Below the pieces are notes generated by a model, which ran no database searches, had not been told where the DNA came from, and was given only the letters and a program-made list of their open reading frames with translations. A program made the translations under genes and the position numbers. DNA of 64,000 bases from a virus, in the IMG/VR virus record IMGVR_UViG_3300012005_000004, positions 1 through 64,000 of that record. One strand, given 5' to 3'. Of the stretch, positions 20,164 to 63,976 are shown piece by piece; within the stretch, counting starts at the first letter, position 1; every line of letters begins with the position of its first letter.

Positions 20164-20171
20164 AGATAAAA

Positions 20172-20432: not shown

Positions 20433-20457
20433 TTTCATAACTGTTAAGGAATAGATC

Positions 20458-21723: not shown

Positions 21724-21725
21724 AG

Positions 21726-21911: not shown

Positions 21912-21932
21912 TCACATAATTTAGGAAAAACT

Positions 21933-22202: not shown

Positions 22203-22208
22203 AGAAAC

Positions 22209-23964: not shown

Positions 23965-23966
23965 TT

Positions 23967-23996
23967 GTTTACACAAGGTGTGAAATGGTATAAGAT
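23967..23996 (+). promoter_or_regulatory. Early-type promoter
   Basis: GTTTAC-N18-TAAGAT. Confidence 0.6.
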
Positions 23997-24022
23997 GCAT
24001 CTACTCACTAAGGAGAACTTGC

Positions 24023-24379
24023 ATGGATCCATTTGAAGCCACTTTGAACGAGCTACGTAATTACTTGAAATCGCTTATGATCTCAAGTGAGCCGGTAACT
24101 AAGTTTGAGTACGGTGGTGACACCCCAGGATTTGAATTGATAACTCACTTCAAAGCGCTCTTACTTGGTGAAGATTCAGATTCTGCAGAAGTAATCTTTA
24201 AGATTCAAAAATTCTTTTCGGCACCAGATGTCTCTGTGAAATCAAATCCATCAGGTGAATTCATGATCGATTTGCGGTGGTCAACTCAGCCACCAAACAT
24301 GGATGCATTGTTAAACTTCGGCGTGGTAAATGATGGGCCATTTGCTGGTAATTTGTATTTCTCAATGTCACGTGGTTAA
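24023..24379 (+). CDS. Hypothetical protein
   Basis: AAGGAG SD. Confidence 0.65.
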   Translation: MDPFEATLNELRNYLKSLMISSEPVTKFEYGGDTPGFELITHFKALLLGEDSDSAEVIFKIQKFFSAPDVSVKSNPSGEFMIDLRWSTQPPNMDALLNFGVVNDGPFAGNLYFSMSRG

Positions 24380-24403
24380 CGTAGTTCAACTTAGGAGTTA
24401 ATT

Positions 24404-25042
24404 ATGAGTGCTCTCACTCTCAATCTGTCAAAACCTGGCGACGTCGCCCAAAAGCTGCAACTGAACCTCAAGAAGTCTGAAGCCTTCAAGGTCAAGCTTG
24501 CTTGGGAAGGCAACACCGACCTGGACCTGCACGCCCTGTTCTGCATCAATGACGGCTCCGGCGGAAAGATCAGCCAGCTCGAAGATATCCTTTCCACATA
24601 CAACGTCAAGCGGCGCCTCGGCGGCCAAGAAGCCGGCACACTGACCAAAAATCCCGATGGCACCTTCGCAATTCACGGTGGAGCCCTCATTCACAGCGCC
24701 GACGTAGACAATGGCGACTCATCCGAAGATGAAGATGAATGGATCCGTGTCGATCCTTCCAAGATGACGATCCCGCCCGGATCAGCCATCGAGATTCCAA
24801 TCATCGCGATGATTCATCCTCAGTCTTCCGGCCGGAACTTCAGCGGCGTTCAGAATGCCAAGGTGTCCGTGGAAGATGCCAACGGGACCGTCCTCATGTC
24901 GGCGAACCTCTCAGCCCAGTTCGGTCAGTTCGTCGGTGTGCAGATGGGTTCGATCATGATTGAAGACACCGGAACGAGCTTCGCTCAGGTTGGCGTCGGC
25001 TTCAACGAGGACTTCAACGGCGTCCTGGGCCACTTCTCCTGA
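24404..25042 (+). CDS. terD: TerD-family stress protein
   Basis: LNLKK, L.W...DLDLHAL, HSAD...G...DEWI.VD. Confidence 0.8.
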   Translation: MSALTLNLSKPGDVAQKLQLNLKKSEAFKVKLAWEGNTDLDLHALFCINDGSGGKISQLEDILSTYNVKRRLGGQEAGTLTKNPDGTFAIHGGALIHSADVDNGDSSEDEDEWIRVDPSKMTIPPGSAIEIPIIAMIHPQSSGRNFSGVQNAKVSVEDANGTVLMSANLSAQFGQFVGVQMGSIMIEDTGTSFAQVGVGFNEDFNGVLGHFS

Positions 25043-25043
25043 G

Positions 25044-26066
25044 ATGAAACCGACCATCATCGGCGAGAAGAAAGTAGAGGTCACCAAGGTGTTTAAGCCA
25101 ACTGTGATCTCTACTCAAAGCTCGCCGGTGGAGACTCCTCCCATGAAACCGACATCATTTAAGCCGACTACCATTCCTCAATCGGAGACAAAGCCGAATG
25201 ATCCAGAGGAACCAAAGGCTTCATTTAAGCCGACCTCGTGGGAATCAAAGGTTCCTCCTCCAGAGGTAAAGCCAGTTCATCAGCCGATCGGACCTTCAAA
25301 GCTTCCTGGACAAGAGCGCCACACGTTGGATGTTTCATTTGATGAGGTCAAGAAGAAATTCATAGCCTACGATGATGATATCATCCAAGCAACACGAGAT
25401 ACGCTTTGTGGTGTTATCATCGAGTCAATGGATACACAAGCCACCATGATGTTCGGCGTCAAGGTTCAACAAAGCTACAGCATCATCGTTGACAAGTGGC
25501 TCAAGGTCCTTGAAGGCGATCAGGTTAGAACCACAGGTCGGCACGTTCAGCGATTGAAGGAAGTTCTTCAAACCGTCGCTGATTCTTTGACCGCAGGACA
25601 ACCATGGTTTCGTCGTGAAACTATCCAGGGACGCTTTGATAAGGTAAAACCAGAGATAGAACAGCTTAGACAGCTCCTTCGTACTGGTGAACAACAGCTC
25701 TCAGTGGCAAATCGAGAGCTGACCGAGTTGAAGCTGTCTACTCAGCGCTTGATTAAGGAAGCGACAGGTTACATGCTCGCGTGCGAGTACATCATACCTA
25801 AGCTTCCAGAAGACAAGGGACGTCTCTTGAATGATCGTGGTATGTCTTTGACTAAGACGATCAGCTTGCTTCAAACTCAAGCGATGAAGCTAGATCAAGA
25901 TGAACAGAACATAACAGCGCTATTAACTAATATCCAGGATGGTGTGCTTATTGCCCTTCCTGCACTTTTATCAACCGTAGCAACGGCCGTTCAAGATGAG
26001 AAGAATGACACACAGCGGTTCGTCGTTCGTGATCAATTGATGGACGTCATCCGTAAGTTAACTTAA
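25044..26066 (+). CDS. Second TelA-like coiled-coil protein with Pro-rich (F/M)KPT repeat N-terminus
   Basis: FKPT/MKPT repeats; FG..VQ motif and coiled coil; Ter context. Confidence 0.6.
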   Translation: MKPTIIGEKKVEVTKVFKPTVISTQSSPVETPPMKPTSFKPTTIPQSETKPNDPEEPKASFKPTSWESKVPPPEVKPVHQPIGPSKLPGQERHTLDVSFDEVKKKFIAYDDDIIQATRDTLCGVIIESMDTQATMMFGVKVQQSYSIIVDKWLKVLEGDQVRTTGRHVQRLKEVLQTVADSLTAGQPWFRRETIQGRFDKVKPEIEQLRQLLRTGEQQLSVANRELTELKLSTQRLIKEATGYMLACEYIIPKLPEDKGRLLNDRGMSLTKTISLLQTQAMKLDQDEQNITALLTNIQDGVLIALPALLSTVATAVQDEKNDTQRFVVRDQLMDVIRKLT

Positions 26067-26075
26067 GGAAATCAA

Positions 26076-26843
26076 ATGGCAATTACACTGAATCTTCAGA
26101 AATCCCAAGCAGCTCTGCAATTGAACTTGCAAAAGGCCGGTATCATCACACCTCCTTCCGTTGAGATGATGTTCATCCTTGACGTCAGTGGTTCTTTTGA
26201 AACTGAGCATATCAATGGCACCACGAATGACCTGATCACACGGCTCGTTCCGTGGGGTATGACCTTTGACCCGGACAAGAAGCTTGACTTGCTGACCTTC
26301 TCCAATGGTCCAAACTCTGTACAAAATGTAGGTCCTGTAACCGACGCCAACTATAAGGACTTTGTCAAGAAGAACATCATCAACAAGGTTGAAGGTTGGA
26401 ACGGCGGAACTGACTATAGCTACGCTCTCGAAGAATCGCTGAAGGAATTTGGTTGGATCGGTGAAGGTATCGGTGGAGCGGCGCCAGCCGAAAAACCTGG
26501 GTTCTTCGGTAAGCTCTTCAGTAAGAAGGAAACTCCAGCCATCACCGCTCCAACTTCACAGAAACGAAAGTCTCTTGTCATCTTCGTTACTGACGGTGAA
26601 AACAGCGATCGTGACCGGACCACGAAGATCCTCCAGGAATCTGAAAACCGCCATGACGGCTGCTACTTCCTCTTCATCGGCGTTGGCCATGGCAACTTCT
26701 CCTACCTCAAGCAAGCTGGAGATAAGTTTGCCAACACTGCCTTCTACGAGATCAAGGACCTGAAGAAGTTCATCAGCATGTCCGACGAGGACCTGTACGG
26801 TGAGCTGATGCAGGAAGAGCTGATGTCCTGGATGAAATCCTAA
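26076..26843 (+). CDS. vWA domain protein (TerF-associated type)
   Basis: LDVSGS, GGTDY, FVTDGEN, FLFIGVG. Confidence 0.85.
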   Translation: MAITLNLQKSQAALQLNLQKAGIITPPSVEMMFILDVSGSFETEHINGTTNDLITRLVPWGMTFDPDKKLDLLTFSNGPNSVQNVGPVTDANYKDFVKKNIINKVEGWNGGTDYSYALEESLKEFGWIGEGIGGAAPAEKPGFFGKLFSKKETPAITAPTSQKRKSLVIFVTDGENSDRDRTTKILQESENRHDGCYFLFIGVGHGNFSYLKQAGDKFANTAFYEIKDLKKFISMSDEDLYGELMQEELMSWMKS

Positions 26844-42219: not shown

Positions 42220-44208
42220 ATGGGCAAACTTCTTGAACGTTTCATGACGGACCTAGGCGGACGATCAACAGATGATCTAATCCCACTCGAAGATTATCTC
42301 GAGCTCTGTAAGACAACCCCAGCAGTTTACGCATCTCCAGCTCAGCGTATGCTTAAGGCTATCGGTGATCCAATCACGATCGACACGCGCAACGACACCC
42401 GGCTGGCCAAGGTGTTCGGCAACAAGATCATCCGTCAGTATCCAGCATTCAAGGATTTCTACGGCATGGAAGACGCGATCGAAAACATCGTGTCGTACTT
42501 CAAACACTCCGCTCAGGGTCTTGAAGAATCTAAGCAGATCCTGTACTTGCTTGGACCGGTCGGCGGCGGTAAATCGTCTTTGGCTGAAAAGCTAAAAGCT
42601 TTGATGGAAGATGTTCCGGTCTACATTCTCTGCACCCATGAAAAGGAAAAGAAGAACGAACACAGCACCGTCGAGAAATTTACCACTGAAGTATCTCCGG
42701 TCTTTGAAAATCCGCTCGGGTTGTTCCACGGAAAAGAATCGTACGTTACGATGCTCGCCGAAGAATATGACATCCCAAAAACCGCGATTCGTACCATCCC
42801 ATCGCCGTGGGCTGTTAAGAAGCTCGAAAGCTACGGCTATGATTTCTCAAAGTTCTATGTCAAGAAGATCTATCCAAGCCGTCTTCGTCAAGAATGTATC
42901 GCTCGGGTTGAACCAGGCGATGAAAACAACCAGGATGTTTCTTCAATGGTCGGCGAGCTTAACATCCGCATGCTCGAAAAGTTTGACCAGGATCACCCCT
43001 ACGCTTACACCTTCTCGGGTGGATTGAACAAGGGTAATAATGGCTTGGTCGAAATGGTTGAAATGTTCAAGACCCCGATCAAGATGTTGAATCCTCTGCT
43101 GACGGCCACGCAAGATCGTAACTACACCGGTACGAAGCCGATTGGTTCGATTCCGTTTGACGGCATCATCATGGCTCACTCGAACGAATCTGAATGGTCG
43201 CAGTTTAAGAATAACAAGACAAACGAAGCGTTCCTCGATCGCGTCTACGTTGTTCACGTTCCATATTGCACACGGGTCAATGAAGAAATTTCGATTTACA
43301 AAAAGCTATTAGCTCACTCTGAACTGTTCAAGGCGCCTTGTGCTCCTGGAACTCTCGAGTTCCTCGCGCAATTCTGCGTTATGTCTCGTCTTGAAGAGCC
43401 TGGCAACTCAACTCTGTACTCAAAGATGCGAGTCTACAACGGCGAAAACGTCAAGAACGATGATCCGAAGGCTAAGCCTATCCAAGAATACAAGGATGCG
43501 GCCGGAGTCAACGAAGGCATGAAGGGTTTGTCAACTCGTTTTGCCTTCAAGATCCTCTCGAAGACGTTCAACTTTGACACCGAAGAAGTTGCGGCAAATC
43601 CGATCCACCTGATGTATGTCCTCAAGACGTCCATCGCCCACGAGCAATTTGACAGCGAAAAGAATGATGCGCTGTTGGAAAATCTCGACGGTGTGCTGTC
43701 GGACAAGTACATGGAGTTCCTCGAGAAGGATATCCGCGCATCGTTCCTGGATTCATTCCAGGACCTCTGCCAAAATGTCTTCGAGAACTACTTTTACTAC
43801 GCCGATGCGTGGGTTCAGGACCAGGAGTTCCGCGATGCAGATACAGGCGTCATGCTTGATCGGCCGGCCATCAACGCCGAGCTGGAGAAGATCGAGAAGC
43901 CTGCCGGCATCTCTAACCCGAAGGACTTCCGTAATGACATCACGAACTTTGTGATCCGTTATAAGTCTGATCATGGTGGTCAGCTGCCGAAGTGGGATTC
44001 TTTCGCTAAGATGCGGGACGTGATCGAGAAGAAAGTTTTGGCTTCGACGGATGAGATCCTTCCGGTCATCTCATTTGCACCGAAGCGCTCGGAGCAAGAC
44101 CAGAAGAAACATGAGCAGTTTGTTGGAAAGATGGCGGCGCGCGGTTACACCGAACGCCAAACTCGATTCCTTTGCGAATGGTTCATGCGTTCCAGGAAAG
44201 CGTCGTAA
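42220..44208 (+). CDS. prkA: PrkA/YeaG family AAA+ serine kinase
   Basis: LLGPVGGGKSSLAE, EPGDENNQD, EMFK, AHSNESEW, EAFLDR. Confidence 0.95.
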   Translation: MGKLLERFMTDLGGRSTDDLIPLEDYLELCKTTPAVYASPAQRMLKAIGDPITIDTRNDTRLAKVFGNKIIRQYPAFKDFYGMEDAIENIVSYFKHSAQGLEESKQILYLLGPVGGGKSSLAEKLKALMEDVPVYILCTHEKEKKNEHSTVEKFTTEVSPVFENPLGLFHGKESYVTMLAEEYDIPKTAIRTIPSPWAVKKLESYGYDFSKFYVKKIYPSRLRQECIARVEPGDENNQDVSSMVGELNIRMLEKFDQDHPYAYTFSGGLNKGNNGLVEMVEMFKTPIKMLNPLLTATQDRNYTGTKPIGSIPFDGIIMAHSNESEWSQFKNNKTNEAFLDRVYVVHVPYCTRVNEEISIYKKLLAHSELFKAPCAPGTLEFLAQFCVMSRLEEPGNSTLYSKMRVYNGENVKNDDPKAKPIQEYKDAAGVNEGMKGLSTRFAFKILSKTFNFDTEEVAANPIHLMYVLKTSIAHEQFDSEKNDALLENLDGVLSDKYMEFLEKDIRASFLDSFQDLCQNVFENYFYYADAWVQDQEFRDADTGVMLDRPAINAELEKIEKPAGISNPKDFRNDITNFVIRYKSDHGGQLPKWDSFAKMRDVIEKKVLASTDEILPVISFAPKRSEQDQKKHEQFVGKMAARGYTERQTRFLCEWFMRSRKAS

Positions 44209-44375
44209 TGAATAGCCGAGAGATGTTTGAGCAGTCATTCAAGCGTCCCTCGGACTATTTTAGGTTGACAGCCGAGCATCAATGGGAAATTGATGCTCGG
44301 CTTGGAATCCTAGATTGGGACGGGAAGAACTTGACAGAAGAAGATCATCTTAGATTTAGAAAACATTATGAATGA
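44208..44375 (+). CDS. Small hypothetical protein
   Basis: TAATG overlap; QWEID..LGILDW motif. Confidence 0.6.
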   Translation: MNSREMFEQSFKRPSDYFRLTAEHQWEIDARLGILDWDGKNLTEEDHLRFRKHYE

Positions 44376-45016
44376 GCAAATGGAGAGTATTTTACTCTCC
44401 ATTATTTTTAGAGAACATGAAAAATATAAAGATCATATCAGGGGGTCAAACAGGGGCCGACCTAGCTGGGTTGTGGGTAGCAAAGTTATTTGGATTACAG
44501 ACAGGAGGGATGGCTCCTAAGGGATGGAAGACGCTGATAGGTTCAATGCCTCAGCTTGAAACCCTATTTCAAATGGGAGAGTCCGCAAGCGGATATCATG
44601 GCAGAACATTAGAAAATTGCGAGATGTCTGACATAACGCTGATCTTTGCATCTAATATTAAGTCGCCAGGTACCAAGCTAACTCTTCACCATTGTGTCAA
44701 GAACAAGATTCACTATCAAATCTTTGCGTTCGGAGACGATGCGGTTACTGCATCAGATCAAGCACTAGGAAGATTAGTAACAGTTTTGCAAAATCAACTT
44801 GCGGTGAATGAAGATTCGATCATTAACATCGCGGGTAATTCAACCTCGACATCCTCACAGACCTTCAAGTTTACATTTCTCTTGTTGTGTAAAGCTTTTG
44901 AGCAAGTTCTCAGATTTAAACCAGAGCAGCTGAAGAATCATGGTATAGATAAGGTAGAGGCGATGGCACGAGACCGCTATGATCAATCAACTTTTGATTT
45001 TCTTACAAAAGTGTGA
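44372..45016 (+). CDS. SLOG-superfamily protein (putative MoCo-carrier / cpYpsA type)
   Basis: KIISGGQTGAD.AGL..A...G..TGG.AP.GW, RT..N...SD.TL, S.GT.LT, INIAGN. Confidence 0.8.
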   Translation: MSKWRVFYSPLFLENMKNIKIISGGQTGADLAGLWVAKLFGLQTGGMAPKGWKTLIGSMPQLETLFQMGESASGYHGRTLENCEMSDITLIFASNIKSPGTKLTLHHCVKNKIHYQIFAFGDDAVTASDQALGRLVTVLQNQLAVNEDSIINIAGNSTSTSSQTFKFTFLLLCKAFEQVLRFKPEQLKNHGIDKVEAMARDRYDQSTFDFLTKV

Positions 45017-45097
45017 GCGGTGAGATCAAAATTTCTTTTAGTATCTTTTTGAGAAGATCTATATTAGAATAGATCTAATCATGGAGAATTCAAGGAA

Positions 45098-45859
45098 ATG
45101 AAGGATAATAACTCAAAGCTTCTCGGATTCAATGTTGCACAAGCTGCCTCTCAGTTTCGCTTGATGCAGCATCACGAATTGGTTAGCTACATCTTTCGCT
45201 CGAATGGTGTTGAGGATTACCTTGATTATTTCAATGCCCACAATCCATCTAGCGATATCCCATATCACAATAAGTACCACACTTATTGTATGGCATTGAA
45301 TGTCTATGAGGCTTCTCTCTATTACAATCTTTCTATAGAAGCTCGACGAGCTCTTCTAGTTGCCGCATTATTTCACGATTATGATCATTCTGGTGGACGC
45401 AAAACTGACGACATAAACGTCGCCATAGCCGCAAATAACCTGGTTGATGCTCATAAACAGCTTGTAGAAATATACCGAACTCAACCGGTCTCCGACGTCG
45501 GAGACCACTTCGCTCACTTAACTCCAAAAGAGCTCATTGATGCGATTGAGACGTTGCTTATTACTAAATACCCCTATGATGGACCTCCAGTCACGATGCT
45601 TCAAAAGATCATTCGTGATGCGGACTTGATGCAAGTATACGAAGAAGATGCTGATCGTCTGCGACAGCAATTTCTCGGTCTAAAGGCTGAGATGGAGCTT
45701 ACGCGCGGACCCTTTACACCAGAACAATGGGGCGATGGATGTCGTGATTTTAACGATGCTACCGTCTGGCATACCCAGTGGGCCCAGGACAAGGCGGTCG
45801 CCTTGGACCAAAAGGCTTGCACGGAACATCTTAGAAATTTATTGATAGGAAACAAATGA
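45098..45859 (+). CDS. HD-domain phosphohydrolase resembling class I cyclic-nucleotide PDE core
   Basis: PYHN..H, AALFHD.DH.G, IIRDADL. Confidence 0.8.
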   Translation: MKDNNSKLLGFNVAQAASQFRLMQHHELVSYIFRSNGVEDYLDYFNAHNPSSDIPYHNKYHTYCMALNVYEASLYYNLSIEARRALLVAALFHDYDHSGGRKTDDINVAIAANNLVDAHKQLVEIYRTQPVSDVGDHFAHLTPKELIDAIETLLITKYPYDGPPVTMLQKIIRDADLMQVYEEDADRLRQQFLGLKAEMELTRGPFTPEQWGDGCRDFNDATVWHTQWAQDKAVALDQKACTEHLRNLLIGNK

Positions 45860-47241
45860 GCATCGTCATCAATGATAAGCGTAAAGTAACAAGGGATCGC
45901 ACGTCTGAAAATCGGGCTCGTTTCCTTCGACGCATCAAGGGAACCATCAAGGAACAGATGAATGATATCATCGGTGGAAAATCTCTCAAGGAGATGGACA
46001 AGACCGGTGGTAACATAAAGGTTAATCGAAAAACGATAACCGAGCCTCAGATCTGGCACACCGACGGAGGTAACGTCGATCGCGTCTTGCCTGGAAATGA
46101 TCAATATGTTCCAGGAGATACCATCCAGAAACCACGCCAAGGCGGAGGTCAAGGACGCGGCAAGAATGCAAGCGATGGTCCAAACTCTGAAGATGATTTT
46201 GTGATTGAGCTGTCTCCTAAGGAATTCATGGATTATTTCTTTGAAGACCTAGAGCTGCCAGACATGATGAAAACCCAGCTGACGAAGATCAAGGAATATA
46301 AGCGTGAAAATGCTGGATTCCAAACAGATGGATCTCCGAATCGGCTGTCGGTCATTCGATCTTACAAACAATCTTTCGCGCGCCGAATGATGATGAATGG
46401 AGTCTTCAAAGATCGCATCGCTATTCTCAACGAGCTACTTTACGTATTGACAAACTCGGAGATGCTAGCGGTGAAAATGATATCACTTCCACTTACGATT
46501 GATATCAAAGAAGCTGTGATCGAGACCGATAAGCTGCCTGAACGTGGAACATTTGAGCATGATCTTTTAGTCGCTACTGTCCAAGCTGAGATAGATCATT
46601 TGCACTTCAAGTGCGAGAACATGGCGATGTTCGAAGAGATGGACATGCGCTATAGAACTGTTATTAAGCGTGAGATTCCGATCGCACACGCTACCATGAT
46701 GATGATCATGGATAACTCAGGATCGATGGGTGAGAAGGAAAAGACGATCGCTAGGAAGTTCTTCTGGTTGCTATACTCCTTCCTGGTCCGCGCATACGAG
46801 AAAGTTGACATGGTATTCATCTCACACACCACCGAAGCATCTGAGATGACCGAAGAAGAATTCTTTAACACTCGCGAGAACGGTGGAACTATCGTATCTT
46901 CAGCTTTGGATCTCACTAACGAGATCATCCAGAAGCGTCTGTTAAATAAGACTAACATCTATGTTGCTCAAGTTTCTGATGGTGACAATGTAGATTCTGA
47001 CAATGACACTTGCATTGACATTCTTACCGATCAAATCCTCCCAAACATTCGCTACATGGCTTATGTTCAGGTAGATGATTATCATGGAGATGAAAATGCA
47101 AATGTCTATGGGAAAGGTTTATGGAGAGCTTATAAGTCGATCTCAGATACTAACTCGCGGTTGCAGATAAAACGCGTGCAAGATGAAAATAACATCTACC
47201 CTGTCTTCAGGGATTTGTTCAAAAAGAAAGAAACATCATAA
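45856..47241 (+). CDS. yeaH: YeaH/YhbH (DUF444) vWA-like protein
   Basis: NR.RFLRR, PGN..Y..GD.I.KP, FEDLELP, MDNSGSM, GGTIVSSAL, SDGDN. Confidence 0.93.
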   Translation: MSIVINDKRKVTRDRTSENRARFLRRIKGTIKEQMNDIIGGKSLKEMDKTGGNIKVNRKTITEPQIWHTDGGNVDRVLPGNDQYVPGDTIQKPRQGGGQGRGKNASDGPNSEDDFVIELSPKEFMDYFFEDLELPDMMKTQLTKIKEYKRENAGFQTDGSPNRLSVIRSYKQSFARRMMMNGVFKDRIAILNELLYVLTNSEMLAVKMISLPLTIDIKEAVIETDKLPERGTFEHDLLVATVQAEIDHLHFKCENMAMFEEMDMRYRTVIKREIPIAHATMMMIMDNSGSMGEKEKTIARKFFWLLYSFLVRAYEKVDMVFISHTTEASEMTEEEFFNTRENGGTIVSSALDLTNEIIQKRLLNKTNIYVAQVSDGDNVDSDNDTCIDILTDQILPNIRYMAYVQVDDYHGDENANVYGKGLWRAYKSISDTNSRLQIKRVQDENNIYPVFRDLFKKKETS

Positions 47242-47450
47242 TGAAAGTCAAAGTAGAGATTAAGTACCCACGGTTCGCGGTTCAGTTTGGAAGACAGATC
47301 GCCTTTGGACAGATCTACAAAGATGGTGCATTGTTCTTTGACGGATCAATCGCTCAAATTTTAGAGGTTGTTAAAGTGCAAGACTTTGAGATCGAGAACG
47401 CGCAGGAGATTCTTGACCTTATAGTTCGACTCCACGGGTTTGCTTGCTAA
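47241..47450 (+). CDS. Hypothetical protein
   Basis: TAATG overlap. Confidence 0.6.
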   Translation: MKVKVEIKYPRFAVQFGRQIAFGQIYKDGALFFDGSIAQILEVVKVQDFEIENAQEILDLIVRLHGFAC

Positions 47451-47459
47451 AAGGCAGAG

Positions 47460-47975
47460 ATGAAACTCTCAACGATTTGGCATCTTCTCGCCTTAGCGAC
47501 GGCTGCTGGTTTAGTAGCAATTTGCTATCCAGAACCTACTAAGAAACCAGAGCTTAAGCAAGTGGTTTCTACCACCTTAACTAAGGTCCCTGGAGTCTCT
47601 GAAGGTATAGAGCTGTACATAGACACCAAGACCATCGAAGATTTTGTTGATTCAAAGTCCTCAGTTCGACACGCTGTAGTGGTGTACTATTTTACAACAC
47701 CACTTGTCATTAGAGGTAAGGATGTTTATTACATGCAAAAAGATGCTTTTTATGCATGTGATGATAATCTCTTCTTAAACGGTGATATAATCTTCTATGA
47801 CAAGGCCGCCAGCCAGCTTTTCAAAGGACCAACTGGTGTCGGTGTTGAAAAACCAGAGAAGGATACAAACTCAGAGGTTGAGATGAAATTTATCTGTGGC
47901 TCCAATGTTACAAAGAAGTCAGCTCCAAAGAGCTCAATCGGCCCAATAAAGCCACTTAATCACATTTACATTTAA
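47460..47975 (+). CDS. Exported hypothetical protein
   Basis: N-terminal hydrophobic signal; two Cys in C-terminal domain. Confidence 0.65.
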   Translation: MKLSTIWHLLALATAAGLVAICYPEPTKKPELKQVVSTTLTKVPGVSEGIELYIDTKTIEDFVDSKSSVRHAVVVYYFTTPLVIRGKDVYYMQKDAFYACDDNLFLNGDIIFYDKAASQLFKGPTGVGVEKPEKDTNSEVEMKFICGSNVTKKSAPKSSIGPIKPLNHIYI

Positions 47976-47986
47976 GGAGCATTAAC

Positions 47987-49531
47987 TTGTCCGAAGATAA
48001 ACTATTATTCAAGGCCGGTGATGATTGGACGTTTGAGATGCTCGATAAGATCTGGACCGAGATCGAGATCATCGCTAAGGAAGAGCTGCGAATTCCTTAT
48101 TACAAACCACAGATTGAAGTTATCACAGCACGACAGATGCTTGATGCTTATACCTCTGTCGGTATGCCAACATACTACAAACACTGGTCATACGGTAAGG
48201 AATTTGTCCAAAGCGAGAAGCAGTATCTCAATGGACAGATGGGTCTCGCTTACGAGATTGTCATTAACTCTGACCCATGCATCGCTTACCTGATGGAAGA
48301 AAACAATGCCCTGATGCAAACCTTGGTCATGGCTCACGCTTCAGTCGGCCACGCGGCGGTTTTCACGAACAACTACCTATTCCGCCAGAACACAGACGCG
48401 TCGGCGATCGTAGATTATCTCAACTTTGCTAGGGATTACCTGAAAAAGTGCGAGGAAAAGTATGGCTTTGATGAGGTAGAAGGTGTACTAGATGCATGCC
48501 ATGCGTTATCGAACTACGGTGTCGATAAGTACAAGCGTCCACCAAAGATTTCGGCTGACAAAGAAGCTAAGAAAGCGATGGAGCGCTTTGAGCGCGAATT
48601 TGCTGACTACGATCCGATCTGGGCTAAGATCGGAAAACGGAAGGCTGATGCTAAGGATGTAAATCCTGTCACTGATACTAAGCTTGCTGAATCACAGGAA
48701 AACATCCTCTATTTTATCGAGAAAAATGCTCCACACCTTCCAGGTTGGAAACGTGAGGTCATCCGCATCGTACGGAAGATCAGTCATTATTTCTCACCGC
48801 AGCGTGCCACCAAGGTTCTGAATGAAGGGTACGCATCATTCACCCACTTCTACATTATGAATCGACTTCATGAGAAGGGTTTCATCGACGGTGGTTCGAT
48901 GATTGAATTCTTCGCTAGCCACAGCGGAGTTCTAACTCAACATAAATTTTCACAGTTCAACCCGTACAAGCTTGGTTTTTCGATCTTCATGGACATCAAG
49001 AGGATGGGTGAGGATCCAACCGATGAAGATCGATTATACTTTCCTGACCTTGCTGGAAAAGACTGGGTCACCGAGATTAACTATGCGATGAAGAACTTCA
49101 AGGATGAAACATTTATCCTTCAGTACCTATCTCCAAAGGTCGCTCGAGACATGCAGTTGTTCGTAATTAACTCAGAGTCGACAGGAGCTACACAATACGG
49201 CGTAACCGAGATCAGTAACCTTGAGGGTTTTGAAACTTTGCGTAAGAAATTGGCCGCACAGTTCGCGATGGAAAATATCATCCCCGACATCCAAATTTCA
49301 AACGTTGATTACAAGCGCTCACGAAAGCTTACTCTTGAGCACCTGGTTAAGAACGGGAAGCCAATCAATATTGATGATACTCGTCGCGTTGTCCAACACG
49401 TCGCCGATCTGTGGGAATACTCAGTCACGCTAGATACCTTCGAATATGACAAGGAAGATGATGCAACCAAGCTTCACATCACAGCCCTTGGAAAATACTC
49501 AATGAAATCATATGAAGAAACCCACAGTTAA
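47987..49531 (+). CDS. spoVR: SpoVR/YcgB family protein
   Basis: GMP..Y.HWS.GK, GLAYEIVINSDPCIAYL, TKVLNEG.A, NPY.LG. Confidence 0.95.
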   Translation: MSEDKLLFKAGDDWTFEMLDKIWTEIEIIAKEELRIPYYKPQIEVITARQMLDAYTSVGMPTYYKHWSYGKEFVQSEKQYLNGQMGLAYEIVINSDPCIAYLMEENNALMQTLVMAHASVGHAAVFTNNYLFRQNTDASAIVDYLNFARDYLKKCEEKYGFDEVEGVLDACHALSNYGVDKYKRPPKISADKEAKKAMERFEREFADYDPIWAKIGKRKADAKDVNPVTDTKLAESQENILYFIEKNAPHLPGWKREVIRIVRKISHYFSPQRATKVLNEGYASFTHFYIMNRLHEKGFIDGGSMIEFFASHSGVLTQHKFSQFNPYKLGFSIFMDIKRMGEDPTDEDRLYFPDLAGKDWVTEINYAMKNFKDETFILQYLSPKVARDMQLFVINSESTGATQYGVTEISNLEGFETLRKKLAAQFAMENIIPDIQISNVDYKRSRKLTLEHLVKNGKPINIDDTRRVVQHVADLWEYSVTLDTFEYDKEDDATKLHITALGKYSMKSYEETHS

Positions 49532-60964: not shown

Positions 60965-60994
60965 ATTTACAAACTCAAAAAGTTAGTTTATAAT
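60965..60994 (+). promoter_or_regulatory. Early-type promoter for the Ro60 gene
   Basis: ATTTAC-N18-TATAAT. Confidence 0.7.
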
Positions 60995-61018
60995 TCTCCT
61001 TCACGCTTAAGCTAGTGT

Positions 61019-61061
61019 GTTGAATAGTGGCGCTGATCCATTGAAGGATCACAATTCCCTA
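61019..61061 (+). promoter_or_regulatory. Structured leader with Y-stem-like motif just upstream of the ro SD
   Basis: TAG-TGGCGC-TGATCC-attgaa-GGATCA-CAATTCC-CTA, resembling TGGCGTAG/TAGTTCC of the 63345 RNA. Confidence 0.45.
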
Positions 61062-61080
61062 ACTGAAAGGTAATAAAAAC

Positions 61081-62517
61081 ATGAAGACCAACGCAAAGGC
61101 AGTAAACAACCGTCGCACCGAAGGTGGTGCACGTGCATCGGCGATCACGCCGGAACAAGAGCTGCGCCGTCAAGTAATGGCACTGATGCTGTGGGAAAAT
61201 GGCGGACAGACAGAAAAGAATGTCGCATCGCTGATCCCGAAGTGTCGGCCAGAGTTCGTGGCCGCGTGCGCGTTCGAAGCTCGCACGAAGATGAAGCTGC
61301 GCCACGTTCCGCTGTTCATCGCGCGCGAGATGGCTCGGCACCCAGAGCACAAGTCCCTGGTGGGTAAGTTGCTGCCTGACCTGATCAACCGTGCCGATGA
61401 GATCAATGAGTTCATGGCGATCTACTGGAAGAACGGTAAGACCCCGATCTCGGCGCAAGTCAAGAAGGGTTTGGCCGCAGCTTTCAAGAAGTTCGGTCCG
61501 TATGCGCTGGCGAAGTACAATAAGACCGACATGGCCATCAAGATGCGTGATGTGATGTTCTTGACTCACGCTAAGCCTGCCGATGCTCCTGGTGACAAGT
61601 ACACCAAGGAAGTTCGTAAGGCTGAACGTGCTGGACAAAAGGCTCGTCAGCTGACCAAGGGCGAAAAGCTGTTCTCGGACTTGATCAATGACAAGCTGGA
61701 AACTCCTGACACATGGGAAACCAACCTGTCGGCTGGTGCAGACAAGAAGGAAACGTTTGAACGATTGATGTCTGAAAACAAGCTGGGTGCATTGGCATTC
61801 ATTCGTAACCTGCGGAACATGGTTCAGGCTGGTGTGAGCCGGCAGGCTATGAAGGAGTACGGAGCCAAGGTAAACTTGGAATACGTGCTGCCGTTCCGGT
61901 TCTTGTCAGCAGCTCGTCAAGTTCCAGGAATGGAAGACCTGTTGGAGCCGATGATGTTGCGTTGCCTGGAAGGTCAACCGAAGCTGCCGGGTAAGACCGT
62001 GCTGATTCTCGACACTTCTGGTTCGATGCACGCCGGAATCTCGGGCAAGTCTGACCTGACTCGTTTGGACACGGCCGCAGCGCTGGCGATCTTGGTTCGT
62101 GAAATTTGCGAAGATGTCGTCATCTACTGTACCGCAGGTTCGGATGGAGCACGTCGTCACGCTACCATGCAGATCCCAGCACGTCGTGGATTTGCGCTGG
62201 CGGATTACATCCGTAGCAATGAAGTTCAAGGCAAGATCGGTGGTGGCGGTATCTTCTTGAAGCAGTGCCTGGACTTCGTGGAAATGAACGAAAAGACGGC
62301 AGACCGCGTGATCACGTTGACCGACGAGATCGACTGCGATGACAAGGCGTCTCCGGAGGGAGCTTCGACTTTCGGTGAGAACAACTACATCATCAACGTC
62401 GCTACGCAGGCTAACGGTATCGCGTACTCGAAGTTCACGCACATCAACGGTTGGAGCGAAGCTGTAATCGACTTCATCCGCGTGCTTGAAGAAGACCAAG
62501 CGGCTGAATTGCAGTAA
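61081..62517 (+). CDS. rsr: Ro60/Rsr TROVE-domain RNA-binding protein with vWA domain
   Basis: T.EGG.A, R...KLRHVP, RADE, F..Y.LAKY, PDTWET.LS, AFIRNLRN, LPFRF, DTSGSM, GWSE. Confidence 0.93.
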   Translation: MKTNAKAVNNRRTEGGARASAITPEQELRRQVMALMLWENGGQTEKNVASLIPKCRPEFVAACAFEARTKMKLRHVPLFIAREMARHPEHKSLVGKLLPDLINRADEINEFMAIYWKNGKTPISAQVKKGLAAAFKKFGPYALAKYNKTDMAIKMRDVMFLTHAKPADAPGDKYTKEVRKAERAGQKARQLTKGEKLFSDLINDKLETPDTWETNLSAGADKKETFERLMSENKLGALAFIRNLRNMVQAGVSRQAMKEYGAKVNLEYVLPFRFLSAARQVPGMEDLLEPMMLRCLEGQPKLPGKTVLILDTSGSMHAGISGKSDLTRLDTAAALAILVREICEDVVIYCTAGSDGARRHATMQIPARRGFALADYIRSNEVQGKIGGGGIFLKQCLDFVEMNEKTADRVITLTDEIDCDDKASPEGASTFGENNYIINVATQANGIAYSKFTHINGWSEAVIDFIRVLEEDQAAELQ

Positions 62518-62601
62518 TGTTTTACGCATGGCACATGCGTACAAGTCCCCTGGATAAGAGATGGAATGTGCTAACAGAGGTCGGTTTACCATTCACCTCT
62601 T

Positions 62602-62735
62602 GGATGTGTAGCTCAGGTTGGTAGAGCGTCTAGTAGGAAAGCCCGGACGTTGATCCCATGTGGAAGCGCATGGAGTAGTCGCGGTGTAGCAAGTACAAAT
62701 GAAGGTCGCAGGTTCGACGCCTGCCACATCCGCCA
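62602..62735 (+). ncRNA. tRNA-scaffold RNA with Y-RNA-like stem replacing the anticodon arm (134 nt)
   Basis: Acceptor GGATGTG/CACATCC+G+CCA, D arm GCTC/GAGC, T arm GCAGG-TTCGACG-CCTGC; 74-nt folded insert at 62629-62702. Confidence 0.8.
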
Positions 62736-62737
62736 AA

Positions 62738-62977
62738 ATGAAACGAATTAGCACTTTATTGTTGAATCGAGTAATTGATAGCGTTCACCATCGAGCTTTT
62801 CGAGGGTATCCTACCTATTATGAAGAAATAAAGATCTTAGAGCTCCTAAAGGATGCACGTGAACTTATGAACAAGCATGATAAAGATAGAAGTAAAGTTG
62901 ATTTAATCGCTCACGTTGTTCTAATCGGTGTTCTAGCTTTATCCGGTGTTATTGTAACCTACTCACTATTTCGCTAA
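62738..62977 (+). CDS. Hypothetical membrane protein
   Basis: C-terminal TM; start moved to 62738 because 62699 lies inside the RNA. Confidence 0.55.
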   Translation: MKRISTLLLNRVIDSVHHRAFRGYPTYYEEIKILELLKDARELMNKHDKDRSKVDLIAHVVLIGVLALSGVIVTYSLFR

Positions 62978-63213
62978 TGATGACCGATAAAGATATTCAA
63001 TTCTTGAAAGAGCAGGTAAAGAATGGTGAGAACGTGTGTTATATCGATGATGACGGTAAGCGTCTTTTAGTATCCTCTGTGAATCTAAACTGGGTAGAAT
63101 TCCCAGATGAACCAGATCTAAAAGAACCAGCCGCCATGCTAGTTGGTAGCGTTCCTGTAGCTTTATTGAACGTTGAGCTGAGTTCTTTCATGAAATTGGT
63201 ACCTCTAAAATAA
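62977..63213 (+). CDS. Hypothetical protein
   Basis: TAATG overlap. Confidence 0.6.
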   Translation: MMTDKDIQFLKEQVKNGENVCYIDDDGKRLLVSSVNLNWVEFPDEPDLKEPAAMLVGSVPVALLNVELSSFMKLVPLK

Positions 63214-63225
63214 TTTCATAAAGTA

Positions 63226-63255
63226 GTTTACTTTTCTAGAAAGACAAGATATAAT
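63226..63255 (+). promoter_or_regulatory. Early-type promoter for an RNA-only unit
   Basis: GTTTAC-N18-TATAAT. Confidence 0.75.
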
Positions 63256-63269
63256 ACTTCCATAGCATA

Positions 63270-63344
63270 AATTCTTAAGTAAGAGCGATCTTAGTAGAGA
63301 TACACTGTTAACATTAGCAGTACTAAGGCTCTTACTTAAGAATT
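63270..63344 (+). repeat. Long leader hairpin
   Basis: Perfect 17-bp AATTCTTAAGTAAGAGC/GCTCTTACTTAAGAATT plus inner CTTAGTA/TACTAAG and CTGTTAA/TTAGCAG. Confidence 0.8.
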
Positions 63345-63409
63345 CAGGTGGCGTAGATAACGGTTACTTCACTTCCAAAGAAACCAACCGTTCTCGCTTA
63401 GTTCCCCTG
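63345..63409 (+). ncRNA. Minimal Y-RNA-like RNA lacking tRNA module
   Basis: CAGG/CCTG end stem, TGGCGTAG...TTAGTTCC internal region, AACGGTT/AACCGTT stem, pyrimidine-rich loop; near Ro60 gene. Confidence 0.6.
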
Positions 63410-63415
63410 TAATAT

Positions 63416-63495
63416 GGTTCCGTAGCTCAATGTTAGAGCGCCTGGTCCCTTTGCGGACAGGAGATAGTGGAGTTCAAATCTCTCTCGGATCCACC
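63416..63495 (+). tRNA. Atypical tRNA-like element (anticodon undefined)
   Basis: GGTTCCG/CGGATCC acceptor (one mismatch), GCTC/GAGC D stem, 21-nt anticodon arm, TTCAAAT T loop, ends ACCT. Confidence 0.55.
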
Positions 63496-63520
63496 TAAAT
63501 TTGTAATTTTTGTGAAGTCT

Positions 63521-63690
63521 TATAAATAAACCTGTTATGAAAAACTTTGTTTCCTTACTGTCGCTTAGTTATTGGTCATTGTCCTACCTTGGACAAGGCC
63601 TTGATGTACCGACTGAAGGATGGGATTTGTAGGAACCCACAAAGATTCAGCAGGTTTATCAAGGCTCCGCAAGGGGCCTTAATTGTTTCT
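63521..63690 (+). promoter_or_regulatory. Late promoter + leader peptide + attenuator-like alternative helices
   Basis: TATAAATA; uORF 63537-63632; antiterminator 63597-63610/63653-63666; terminator AAGGCTCC-gcaa-GGGGCCTT. Confidence 0.6.
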
Positions 63691-63791
63691 GGAGATAGAA
63701 AATGGATTGTGATCATGGATATCTTCTGGGCAATGGTTTGGGTGTTGTGGATAGCGATGATAGCTTCGCTGATCAGCACTGATTAAAATAT

Positions 63792-63874
63792 CTTCGACTG
63801 GCTAATACAAACTGGCACAGTTAGCGTCCTCAAAAGTCGCGCCTCTATCGGTTCGAATCCGATGTCGAAGACCA
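63792..63874 (+). tRNA. tRNA-Leu(CAA), atypical
   Basis: CTTCGAC/GTCGAAG+A+CCA; GCGTC-CTCAAAA-GTCGC; ATCGG-TTCGAAT-CCGAT; enlarged D region, short variable loop. Confidence 0.75.
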
Positions 63875-63885
63875 AAGTAGTATAT

Positions 63886-63976
63886 GGATCTCGCAAGTAA
63901 GGATGGGTGGTCCCGTCAGCCGGCTGTAACCCGGTTCCTATTAGGCAAGGCGTTCAACTCGACCCGAGATCCACCA
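63886..63976 (+). tRNA. tRNA-Tyr(GTA), atypical Sec-like fold
   Basis: 8-bp GGATCTCG/CGAGATCC+A+CCA; 6-bp D stem with TGGT loop; GCCGG-CTGTAAC-CCGGT. Confidence 0.75.

What the first reader, a model, noticed from the sequence alone, without database searches (positions are those of the whole stretch)
60965..63976. Phage Ro60 ribonucleoprotein locus with multiple Y-like RNAs and odd tRNAs
Seen: within 3 kb there are a promoter, a structured leader, an intact TROVE+vWA gene, trailer hairpins, a tRNA/Y chimera, a second promoter, a long hairpin, a minimal Y-like RNA, a tRNA-like element, an attenuator-like leader and atypical tRNAs. No rtcB/rtcA is in the window, but a 2H phosphoesterase and an RlaP-like nucleotidyltransferase occur elsewhere in it. 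Established: bacterial rsr-yrl-rtcBA operons respond to tRNA damage. Inference: an integrated phage module for sensing, decoying and replacing damaged tRNA.
Basis: partly seen in the sequence, partly recalled or inferred. Interest (0 to 1): 0.8.

Follow-up and report, generated by a model that had tools for sequence, protein, structure and literature searches.

The report
Phage Ro60 gene with Y RNAs
A giant soil phage carries a Ro60 ring-protein gene with one clear partner "Y RNA" and a second, tRNA-shaped candidate, at the head of its own tRNA gene island; phage Ro60 with Y RNAs is already known, and only the tRNA-shaped layout appears undescribed in the papers I could search.

Summary
The core observation holds. 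The window is part of an 80-kb fragment of a jumbo soil phage.

- **Ro60 gene:** ORF 61081-62517 is a full-length Ro60/Rsr homologue. Its nearest solved relative is the Ro60 of Thermus phage phiLo.
- **Short Y RNA (secure):** 63343-63410 scores 68.7 bits with a model built from other phages. That family gave 177 matches beside Ro genes, all on the Ro strand, with strong covariation.
- **tRNA-shaped RNA (probable, about 0.65):** 62602-62735 has a perfect acceptor stem, D and T arms and an encoded CCA. About 75 nt replace the anticodon arm. It reads as a YrlA-type Y RNA with its ends moved to the acceptor stem. Clear examples of this layout lie beside Ro genes in other phages. This copy is divergent, and my tests of it are suggestive, not decisive.
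- **Other elements:** both promoters, the long hairpin (z = -6.6) and three sub-threshold tRNA-like elements are real. The "structured leader" and "trailer hairpins" are not supported as Y-like.
- **Repair enzymes:** no RtcB, RtcA, Rnl2-type RNA ligase (Rnl1 not searched), CCA-adding enzyme, 2H esterase or PNPase was found in the 80 kb.

The sensing/decoy/repair reading remains conjecture. This scan had already noted tRNA-shaped Y RNAs beside Ro60 on other DNA.

The parts
60966..60994 (+). Promoter-like site P1 (TTTACA-17-TATAAT) in front of the Ro gene
   Evidence: 11 of 12 consensus matches, the best in the region. Function not shown.
60995..61080 (+). 5' leader of the Ro mRNA. Not a supported structured or Y-like element.
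   Evidence: z = -1.44. Y-core model gives 4.7 bits, E 4.5 (noise). It shares only UGGCG and AAUUCC with the Y core, by eye.
61081..62517 (+). Ro60/Rsr homologue, 478 aa (TROVE ring plus vWA with MIDAS motif DTSGS)
   Evidence: Pfam TROVE 46.2 bits (cut-off 23); phrog_850, 117 bits over residues 5-467. PDB 9KOP/9L5Y, E 6.5e-22 over residues 13-471. DTSGS at residue 311.
62523..62541 (+). Perfect 8-bp hairpin (UACGCAUG-GCA-CAUGCGUA) 6 nt after the Ro stop codon, with no U tract
   Evidence: Read from the sequence. The whole 84-nt trailer is not unusually stable (z = -0.79).
62602..62735 (+). tRNA-shaped RNA with encoded GCCA end whose anticodon arm is replaced by about 75 nt; probably a YrlA-type Y RNA in tRNA topology
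   Evidence: Rfam tRNA 38.6 bits, with 70 nt in place of the 13-position loop; model R2, trained on other phages, aligns it end to end at 52.6 bits; motif-plus-stem test; same layout in L023 and L029.
62643..62684 (+). Proposed Ro-docking hairpin inside the chimera: stem 2 (CCGGAC / GUC[G]CGG), 3' motif GUUGAUCC (62649-62656), stem 1 with GAAG loop, 5' motif UGGAGUAG (62671-62678)
   Evidence: all listed pairs are standard pairs; the R2 alignment puts these blocks under the family's AuuGUUCC and UGGUGUAg; this is the only site in 160 kb that meets all five component thresholds (set after the fact).
62738..63213 (+). Two small ORFs (79 and 78 aa) of unknown function between the two RNA genes
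   Evidence: no Pfam or PHROG match. Coding status not tested.
63227..63255 (+). Promoter-like site P2 (TTTACT-17-TATAAT) in front of the hairpin, Y RNA and tRNA-like unit
   Evidence: 10 of 12 consensus matches.
63270..63344 (+). Long near-perfect hairpin at the start of the P2 transcript, abutting the Y RNA; possible RNase III-type processing site (inference)
   Evidence: -32.6 kcal/mol, z = -6.61, 0 of 200 shuffles as stable.
63343..63410 (+). Short (YrlB-like) Y RNA: terminal stem CAGG/CCUG, UGGCGUAG motif, 8-bp stem 2, UUACUUC, CGCUUAGUUCC
   Evidence: 68.7 bits, E about 1e-16, the only match in the 80-kb contig; covariation in the family; blastn matches to Ro loci of phages whose Ro is only about 40% identical.
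63416..63495 (+). tRNA-like element 6 nt after the Y RNA: cloverleaf with a U-U mismatch in the acceptor stem, a 7-bp anticodon stem, loop CCUUUGC (C at position 33), and an ACC end
   Evidence: Rfam tRNA 28.4 bits (gathering score 29). ARAGORN calls it Lys(UUU) only at a lowered threshold; the minimum-energy fold is a cloverleaf.
63537..63680 (+). 31-codon ORF rich in Ser/Leu/Tyr/Trp, followed by a terminator-like hairpin; attenuator idea not tested
   Evidence: sequence read by eye; one search's translation of this ORF was one base out of frame; hairpin 63661-63680 plus a T-rich tail; z = -2.67 for 63560-63700.
63792..63874 (+). Atypical tRNA-like element: perfect 7-bp acceptor stem, good T arm, ACCA end, aberrant D and anticodon region
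   Evidence: sequence; found by ARAGORN only at a lowered threshold. R2 gives 14.8 bits; partial cloverleaf.
63886..63976 (+). Atypical tRNA-like element: 8-bp acceptor stem, 6-bp D stem with 4-nt loop, 6-bp anticodon stem with loop CUGUAAC (GUA), weak T stem, ACCA end
   Evidence: tRNA-Sec model 18.3 bits, not significant; the minimum-energy fold gives this cloverleaf. ARAGORN does not call it.

Best explanation
This is a phage Ro60/Rsr-Y RNA ribonucleoprotein module sitting at the 5' edge of the phage's own RNA-gene island.

**Shown**
- A full-length Ro60 homologue.
- One Y RNA of the short, YrlB-like kind. It carries the published Ro-docking motif (GNCGAAN0-1G, here GGCGUAG) in a covarying stem-bulge-stem.

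**Probable**
- The tRNA-shaped RNA 84 nt after the Ro stop codon is a second Y RNA of the YrlA kind. Its chain ends sit at the acceptor stem (7 bp plus GCCA), and the Ro-docking helix is closed by a loop where the anticodon arm would be.

**Inferred working**
- P1 drives the Ro mRNA together with the tRNA-shaped RNA. RNase P (host, or the phage's own RNase P RNA-like gene 3.4 kb downstream) would cut at G62602 and release it.
- P2 drives a long hairpin, the short Y RNA and a tRNA-like element, which are cut apart by RNase III- and RNase P-type processing.
- The Ro ring binds the docking helix of each Y RNA. The other end of the Y RNA (the tRNA-like body in the chimera) recruits a host partner, most likely PNPase, as in Deinococcus, Salmonella and Thermus phage phiLo.
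- The particle then either directs or restrains 3'-5' decay of structured RNAs during infection. Given its position, these could include the phage's many unusual tRNA precursors.
For: **Ro identity**
-.

**Short Y RNA and its family**
- The short Y RNA scores 68.7 bits with model R1, built from 16 other phage loci plus the window's own copy. With its row left out of the later PSSM tests, the family motifs still fit.
- R1 gives 177 matches at E <= 0.01 in 98 sources (the window plus 97 other loci), all on the Ro strand.
- Covariation on 137 distinct rows: stem 2 is 93.9% paired, 8 of 8 pairs show double changes, and the score is 0.545 against 0.18 for shuffles and at most 0.27 for slid controls.
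- The motif equals the published GNCGAAN0-1G (PMC4201824).

**tRNA-topology YrlA class**
- Unambiguous copies occur in L023, L144 (two), the L128/L147/L152/L175/L190/L204 family, and L164 (88 bits, not in the training set).
- Where flanks exist, each lies about 100-1400 nt from a Ro gene, on its strand.
- Re-permuting L023 in silico raises its score against a canonical YrlA HMM from 34 to 58 bits.

**The window's chimera**
- R2, trained without the window, aligns it end to end at 52.6 bits, with GUUGAUCC and UGGAGUAG under the family motifs.
- 0 of 400 shuffles reach its motif-plus-stem score.
- It is the only site in 160 kb that meets all five component thresholds.

**Context and mechanism**
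- phiLo Ro60 binds two upstream Y-like RNAs and host PNPase (PMC12135203).
- 22 of 82 Y-bearing loci have 5 or more tRNAs in their flanks.
Against: - **No expression or binding data.** No RNA run holding this DNA was listed.
- **The chimera is a divergent member.** It has A where the family has C or U in the docking motif (GGAGUAG). It lacks the near-invariant UUACUUC. Sequence-only HMMs see only its tRNA parts.
- **Model R2 does not discriminate.** Consensus-like ordinary tRNAs in other loci reach 51.5 bits.
- **The motif tests have weaknesses.** By total score, many other places in the real contig score as high or higher. The clean result uses thresholds set after seeing the site.
- **The proposed fold is not the most stable.** It is -36.9 kcal/mol against an unconstrained minimum of -45.2.
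- **The partner enzyme is unknown.** The fragment encodes no PNPase, and the host is unknown.
Confidence: 0.8

Rival explanations
1. The tRNA-shaped RNA at 62602-62735 is not a Ro ligand. It would be a decayed or insertion-disrupted tRNA gene, or simply a tRNA-like 'punctuation' signal that lets RNase P define the 3' end of the Ro mRNA. The locus would then have one Y RNA.
For: - A sits at the otherwise C/U position of the docking motif, and UUACUUC is missing.
- nhmmer profiles of the docking module give no match.
- R2's 52.6 bits lies within the range of good ordinary tRNAs.
- The unconstrained fold is 8 kcal/mol more stable than the proposed one.
Against: - Inserts of 70-95 nt in the anticodon arm were seen only in Ro-adjacent, Y-motif-bearing RNAs in about 230 loci scanned.
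- Its position and strand match that class.
- The motifs sit exactly at the junctions of two nested helices.
- D arm, T arm and the AGGUC before the T arm match the YrlA consensus.
Confidence: 0.3
2. One reading: the locus is a combined system that senses tRNA damage (as the Salmonella rsr-yrlBA-rtcBA operon does), decoys anticodon nucleases with tRNA mimics, and replaces cut tRNAs from the adjacent array.
For: - Ro and the Y RNAs sit at the head of an array of tRNAs, with an RNase P RNA-like gene and a tmRNA further along.
- A HAD_SAK_2 'RNA repair' domain protein lies at L002 11586-12137.
- A nucleotidyltransferase lies just under the RlaP cut-off.
- A tRNA mimic without an anticodon loop would be immune to anticodon nucleases (inference).
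Against: - No RtcB, RtcA, Rnl2-type ligase, CCA-adding enzyme or LigT/2H esterase in the 80 kb.
- No RtcR-type regulator is implied, since both promoters are sigma-70-like.
- Nothing tested here bears on sensing or decoying.
- Only 22% of the genome is in hand, so absence of these genes is weak evidence.
Confidence: 0.15
3. The particle is an anti-host device rather than a quality-control one. Ro60 and the Y RNAs would trap host PNPase and dampen it. That would protect phage transcripts and tRNA precursors, or blunt PNPase-dependent crRNA maturation, as proposed for Thermus phage phiLo.
For: - phiLo Ro60 plus its Y-like RNAs form ternary complexes with host PNPase and attenuate its activity in vitro (PMC12135203).
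- That protein is the closest solved relative of this one.
- No PNPase gene in the fragment.
Against: - About 22% sequence relatedness at best, inferred from one in-vitro study.
- No infection data anywhere.
- The recurrent placement inside tRNA arrays is not explained by PNPase capture alone.
Confidence: 0.3

Closest known systems
Thermus phage phiLo Ro60 with Yrl1/Yrl2 (Nucleic Acids Res 2025, PMC12135203; PDB 9KOP, 9L5Y)
   Same: Phage-encoded Ro60 ring with vWA domain. It is the best PDB match (E 6.5e-22 over residues 13-471). Y-like RNAs with a CGAA-type motif lie next to the gene on the same strand. No phage PNPase.
   Different: - In phiLo both Y-like RNAs lie upstream of Ro. Here none is upstream and both are downstream.
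- One is tRNA-shaped with a CCA end.
- The locus heads a tRNA, RNase P RNA and tmRNA island.
- Binding and PNPase capture are untested here.
Bacterial Rsr with YrlA/YrlB (Rfam RF02553; Chen et al. 2014, PMC4201824; Wang et al. 2018, bioRxiv 10.1101/312249)
   Same: - GNCGAAN0-1G docking motif in a 5'/3' stem.
- A short hairpin-type Y RNA alongside a tRNA-mimicking one.
- Location within 4 kb of Ro on its strand.
- D and T arms close to the tRNA consensus.
   Different: - Published YrlA has a closed acceptor hairpin, and its ends sit at the Ro-docking stem. The window's candidate has the opposite topology: open 7-bp acceptor stem plus GCCA, docking stem closed.
- Neither RNA reaches the Rfam gathering score (20.7 bits against 69, and no match for the short one).
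[quoted passage not shown] 2014)
   Same: It ends up with a tRNA-like acceptor stem carrying free ends and CCA, showing that a Y RNA can be handled by RNase P and the CCA-adding enzyme.
   Different: There the open acceptor stem arises by cutting a canonical YrlA into two pieces. Here the open acceptor stem and the CCA are encoded in a single continuous gene.
Salmonella rsr-yrlBA-rtcBA RNA repair operon (Hughes et al. 2020, PMC7790460)
   Same: Ro60 and Y RNAs are linked to tRNA biology.
   Different: No RtcB, RtcA or sigma-54/RtcR control was found. The promoters are sigma-70-like. Not a member.

Membership tests
Ro60/Rsr (TROVE plus vWA) | TROVE (HEAT-repeat ring) domain | tested here: met
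   Pfam PF05731 46.2 bits against cut-off 23. phrog_850 117 bits over residues 5-467. PDB 9KOP/9L5Y E 6.5e-22 over residues 13-471.
Ro60/Rsr (TROVE plus vWA) | C-terminal vWA domain with MIDAS DxSxS | tested here: met
   DTSGS at residues 311-315. The full-length alignment to the phiLo Ro60 chains covers this part. There is no separate Pfam vWA match.
Ro60/Rsr (TROVE plus vWA) | Binds a Y RNA | not testable with these tools
   Needs EMSA or pull-down.
Bacterial/phage Y RNA (YrlA/YrlB type) | GNCGAAN0-1G motif near the 5' end, in a stem formed with the 3' end | tested here: met
   The short RNA has GGCGUAG, a U-for-A variant carried by 65 of 136 family rows. The terminal stem covaries (CAGG/CCUG here; UAGG/CCUA, GGAG/CUCC and GGGCG/CGCCC elsewhere).
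Bacterial/phage Y RNA (YrlA/YrlB type) | Encoded within about 4 kb of Ro on the same strand | tested here: met
   826 nt after the Ro stop codon, + strand. All 177 family matches are on the Ro strand.
Bacterial/phage Y RNA (YrlA/YrlB type) | Reaches the Rfam YrlA gathering score (69 bits) | tested here: not met
   No YrlA match at 63343-63410 even at E <= 10. 62559-62659 scores 20.7 bits. Relatives in other phages score 27-47 bits.
YrlA proper (tRNA-mimicking Y RNA) | Internal tRNA-like module with closed acceptor hairpin (order: T arm, acceptor hairpin, D arm) | tested here: not met
   The short RNA has only a small hairpin. The chimera has the order D arm, docking hairpin, T arm, with an open acceptor stem.
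tRNA-topology YrlA class (seen in L023, L144, L128 family, L164; not found in print) | 7-bp acceptor stem with free ends, discriminator plus CCA or similar, and D and T arms near the tRNA consensus | tested here: met
   GGAUGUG/CACAUCC, G, CCA. Rfam tRNA 38.6 bits.
tRNA-topology YrlA class (seen in L023, L144, L128 family, L164; not found in print) | Anticodon arm replaced by: stem 2, 3' motif (xUUGUUCC), stem 1 with loop, 5' motif (UGGYGWAG), stem 2 | tested here: inconclusive
   - The architecture and all stems are present, and R2 aligns them.
- Motifs are GUUGAUCC (4.8 bits) and UGGAGUAG (5.7 bits, with A at the C/U position).
- 0 of 400 shuffles reach the score, and it is the only site in 160 kb passing all thresholds. 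However, the thresholds were set after the fact, and the total-score background is high.
- The R2 score overlaps that of good ordinary tRNAs.
tRNA-topology YrlA class (seen in L023, L144, L128 family, L164; not found in print) | UUACUUC (or AUACUUC) directly 3' of stem 2 | tested here: not met
   The window has UGUAGCAAGUAC there.
rsr-yrlBA-rtcBA RNA repair operon | RtcB ligase and RtcA cyclase in the operon | tested here: not met
   No PF01139 or PF01137 match in the 80-kb record. The record is about 22% of the genome.
Canonical tRNA genes (for the 'odd tRNAs') | Standard cloverleaf with a 7-nt anticodon loop, called by ARAGORN or Rfam at default thresholds | tested here: not met
   ARAGORN finds 0 in the window. 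Rfam in gathering mode finds 0. The elements appear only with relaxed settings.

The most novel reading that the evidence does not exclude
The phage makes a Y RNA that is a true tRNA-shaped molecule: a single chain with an open acceptor stem and encoded CCA, cut out by RNase P. Its 'anticodon' end is the Ro60 docking helix.

Ro60 would thus be plugged directly into the tRNA-handling machinery, namely RNase P (perhaps the phage's own variant), CCA-adding and modification enzymes, and possibly synthetases or EF-Tu. The particle would act as the quality-control or protection hub for the phage's unusual tRNA set.

This tRNA-topology form would be an undescribed, recurrent class of Y RNA.
Probability: 0.2. 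Interest if true: 0.75.

Novelty: new variant of a known kind. Interest (0 to 1): 0.5.

Why it matters
Ro60 and Y RNAs are conserved from bacteria to humans, where Ro60 is a lupus and Sjogren's autoantigen. What the tRNA-like half of bacterial Y RNAs is for remains open.

- **A handle on function.** Phage loci like this one place Ro60 and its RNAs inside self-contained tRNA islands. That gives a compact setting in which to ask which RNAs Ro60 surveys and which enzyme the Y RNA recruits.
- **What the tRNA-shaped form would show.** If it is confirmed as a Ro ligand, the tRNA mimicry is meant to be read by tRNA enzymes, since it has a free acceptor end with CCA.
- **A link to an existing proposal.** It would also fit the idea that YrlA arose from tRNA genes.

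The Ro60-Y RNA module itself is not new. It is documented in mycobacteriophages, jumbo phages and Thermus phage phiLo.

Tried and rejected
- **Ro leader as a truncated Y RNA.** By eye it shares UGGCG...AAUUCC, but the Y model gives 4.7 bits (noise) and the fold is z = -1.4. Rejected.
- **Trailer hairpins as a structured element.** z = -0.8. Rejected, apart from noting one 8-bp hairpin.
- **ARAGORN 'intron' reading of the chimera** (tRNA-Ser with a 35-nt intron). A forced fit with an unpaired long arm. A bacterial group I intron would be far longer (from my own knowledge). Rejected.
- **Rfam YrlA hit at 62559-62659** (20.7 bits). It rests on the D arm only and has many broken pairs. Not used.
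- **nhmmer tests.** The re-permuted chimera aligns to canonical YrlA only over the tRNA parts, which any tRNA would do. A profile of the permuted docking module finds nothing in the window's insert and only 8.5 bits in L023. Uninformative.
- **Total-score PSSM-plus-stem scan.** Many other sites in the real contig score as high or higher, so only the conjunction test (thresholds set afterwards) separates the site.
- **A third covariance model of the docking hairpin alone.** MAFFT misregistered L023 and L164 (A7), so it was not built.
- **Closer relatives.** The best Ro relative is 68% identical (L003) and has a different layout. Megablast against phage records found nothing. An exact 22-mer scan of viral contigs found nothing.
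- **Expression.** No RNA holder listed.
- **L221's R2 hit** (51.8 bits). The acceptor strands do not pair. It is two canonical copies in tandem, not a permuted one.

Full report
**What the window is.** The window is bases 1-64000 of an 80,369-base IMG/VR virus record. CheckV rates the record about 22% complete, which implies a jumbo phage. Public runs holding it are soil metagenomes from one study. Genes are densely packed on the + strand. They include PrkA/DUF444/SpoVR, Ter-like proteins, a PAS-GGDEF-EAL protein and a DNA ligase.

**The protein.** ORF 61081-62517 (478 aa) is a Ro60/Rsr homologue.
- It passes Pfam TROVE at 46.2 bits against a cut-off of 23.
- It matches phrog_850 over its whole length at 117 bits.
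- It matches the chains of PDB 9KOP/9L5Y over residues 13-471 with E 6.5e-22. Those entries are the Ro60 of Thermus phage phiLo (PMC12135203).
- It has the MIDAS motif DTSGS at residue 311.
- Its G+C is 54% (65% at third codon positions), against 44% for the window.

**The secure Y RNA.** A blastn of the Ro-downstream DNA against 33 viral loci encoding Ro relatives (34-68% identity) matched only 63338-63408, and did so in many loci. Inspection showed a shared design:
- a covarying 4-6-bp terminal stem;
- UGGCGWAG;
- an 8-bp stem 2 (G-NNNN-CGG / CCG-NNNN-C);
- UUACUUC;
- a variable interior;
- then CGCUUGUUCC.

A covariance model built from 17 short copies (R1) scores the window's copy at 68.7 bits. 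It finds no other copy in the 80-kb contig. Across 98 sources (the window plus 97 other loci) it gives 177 matches at E <= 0.01, every one on the Ro strand.

On the 137 distinct aligned rows, stem 2 is 93.9% paired and all 8 of its pairs show double changes. The covariation score is 0.545, against 0.18 for shuffles and at most 0.27 for slid controls. UGGCGWAG is the published Ro-docking motif GNCGAAN0-1G (Chen et al. 2014).

Long copies carry the permuted tRNA-like module of YrlA. They score 27-47 bits with Rfam's YrlA model, under its gathering score of 69. The window's copy is the short, YrlB-like kind.

**The tRNA-shaped RNA.** Rfam's tRNA model matches 62602-62732 at 38.6 bits, with 70 nt where the anticodon loop region belongs. 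It has these features:
- acceptor stem GGAUGUG/CACAUCC;
- D arm UAGCUCAGGUUGGUAGAGC;
- T arm GCAGG-UUCGACG-CCUGC;
- discriminator G and an encoded CCA.

A strict scan for tRNAs with long inserts found the same layout in L023 and in L029/L030. After a pattern scan of viral contigs, it also appeared twice in L144 and in a seven-contig family: L128, L147, L152, L175, L183, L190 and L204. In these the insert reads: 3' motif, short stem and loop, 5' motif, stem 2, UUACUUC. An example from L144 is CGAUUGUUCC-CC-GUCA-GG-UGGCGUAG-GCAAGAG-UUACUUC. That is YrlA with its ends moved to the acceptor stem.

The tandem-canonical alternative fails for L144 and L023, because their acceptor strands pair with each other across the unit. 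These loci were fetched by an RNA pattern alone. Even so, 7 of the 9 with a strict motif-bearing permuted copy have a Ro gene within a few hundred bases on the same strand, and L164, found later with model R2, has one about 1.4 kb away. Re-permuting L023 in silico raises its score against a canonical YrlA profile from 34 to 58 bits.

**Is the window's copy one of them?** Mapping by eye gives:
- stem 2: CCGGAC / GUC[G]CGG;
- 3' motif: GUUGAUCC;
- stem 1: CCAUGUG-GAAG-CGCAUGG;
- 5' motif: UGGAGUAG.

All of these pairs are standard pairs. Model R2, built only from other phages' copies, aligns the window's RNA end to end at 52.6 bits, E 5e-12, in exactly this register. The best ordinary tRNA of the same contig gets 32.5 bits.

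Several points count against it:
- Consensus-like tRNAs in other loci reach 51.5 bits, so R2 does not discriminate.
- The copy has A where all 135 family rows with a base at that position have C or U.
- It lacks UUACUUC.
- Sequence-only profiles do not see its docking module.

I then ran a motif-plus-stem score whose parameters come from the canonical family with the window's row left out. It picks the same register. No shuffle out of 400 reaches its total. In real sequence, however, many other places score as high or higher. Requiring each of five components to be at least as good as observed leaves this as the only site in 160 kb, but those thresholds were set after seeing the site. I put the chance that it is a Ro ligand at about 0.65.

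**The other listed elements.**
- **Promoters.** P1 and P2 are the two best sigma-70-like sites on the + strand and sit in the right places.
- **Long hairpin.** 63270-63344 is exceptionally stable (z = -6.6) and abuts the Y RNA.
- **tRNA-like elements.** 63416-63495 folds as a cloverleaf but has a 7-bp anticodon stem and C33. 63792-63874 and 63886-63976 have good acceptor stems and CCA ends but aberrant cores.
- **Leader and trailer.** The Ro leader and the trailer are not unusual.
- **Possible attenuator.** A 31-codon ORF rich in Ser, Leu, Tyr and Trp precedes a terminator-like hairpin, followed by an array of Tyr, Ser, Trp and Leu tRNAs. I did not test the attenuator idea.

**Context beyond the window.** The rest of the contig holds six canonical tRNAs and several weak ones. 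It also holds an RNase P RNA class A-like gene (72.9 bits, E 1e-20, below the gathering score of 100) and a permuted beta-type tmRNA. A HAD_SAK_2 'RNA repair' domain protein is there too. Searches of the whole record found no RtcB, RtcA, Rnl2-type ligase, CCA-adding enzyme, LigT/2H esterase or PNPase. The nucleotidyltransferase at 4888-5985 scores 21.8 bits against RlaP's cut-off of 23.

**Comparison with what is known.**
- Phage Ro60 genes with YrlA-like RNAs were reported in 22 phages (PMC4201824).
- TROVE proteins with a tRNA-like partner were noted in jumbo phages (PMC7824862).
- phiLo Ro60 was shown to bind two upstream Y-like RNAs and host PNPase (PMC12135203).

So the module is a new member of a known kind. 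Published YrlA is described as a circularly permuted tRNA mimic with a closed acceptor stem. [quoted passage not shown] I found no paper describing genes that encode the open-acceptor, tRNA-topology form. Other reports of this scan had noted that form beside Ro60 on other DNA, and I re-derived it here independently.

**Verdict.** The interest is moderate and rests on the tRNA-topology Y RNA, of which this window holds a divergent and only probable example.

Noticed in passing
L002:5738-6130 (contig 66107-66499, outside the window): RNase P RNA class A-like gene inside the phage tRNA array: 72.9 bits, E 1e-20, below Rfam's gathering score of 100.
   Followed up: no
L002:14038-14367 (contig 74407-74736): Permuted, betaproteobacterial-type tmRNA gene with tag ANEAFFGKFALVA (ARAGORN; Rfam 116-123 bits). 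It hints at a betaproteobacterial host.
   Followed up: no
L002:11586-12137: 183-aa protein with the HAD domain of 'Swiss Army Knife' RNA repair proteins (PF18143, 58.5 bits), between the tRNA array and the tmRNA. It is the only clear RNA-repair-type domain found in the record.
   Followed up: no
window 63537-63680: 31-codon ORF MKNFVSLLSLSYWSLSYLGQGLDVPTEGWDL (7 Leu, 5 Ser, 2 Tyr, 2 Trp), then a terminator-like hairpin, upstream of an array made of Tyr, Ser, Trp and Leu tRNAs. The amino-acid match is striking.
   Followed up: partly
L002:3862-4542: GIY-YIG/SegE-like homing endonuclease (phrog_314, 115 bits) sitting between the atypical tRNA-like elements and the canonical tRNA cluster.
   Followed up: no
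L003-L115 (many loci): In most phage Ro loci the Y RNAs lie upstream of Ro. The last one ends only 10-40 nt before the Ro start codon, inside the Ro 5' UTR, which suggests co-transcription and possibly feedback. The window is unusual in having none upstream.
   Followed up: partly
L010:5300-5552: Same order as in the window: Ro stop codon, consensus promoter, short Y RNA, then an atypical tRNA with CCA that ARAGORN misses at default settings.
   Followed up: no
L147:2076-2217(-) and L190:7546-7687(-): A second tRNA-topology Y RNA downstream of the first, in which the D arm is replaced by an unrelated short segment while the docking hairpin and T arm are kept.
   Followed up: no
window 61081-62517: The Ro gene is 54% G+C (65% at third codon positions), against 44% for the window and 40% for the neighbouring GGDEF-EAL gene. 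This is compatible with recent acquisition or with selection on codon use.
   Followed up: no
window 19135-26843 and 42220-49531: The phage carries a Ter-like set (DUF475/TerC, TerD, a TelA-like protein, vWA-TerF-like) and a complete PrkA-DUF444-SpoVR triad, both usually chromosomal stress modules.
   Followed up: no
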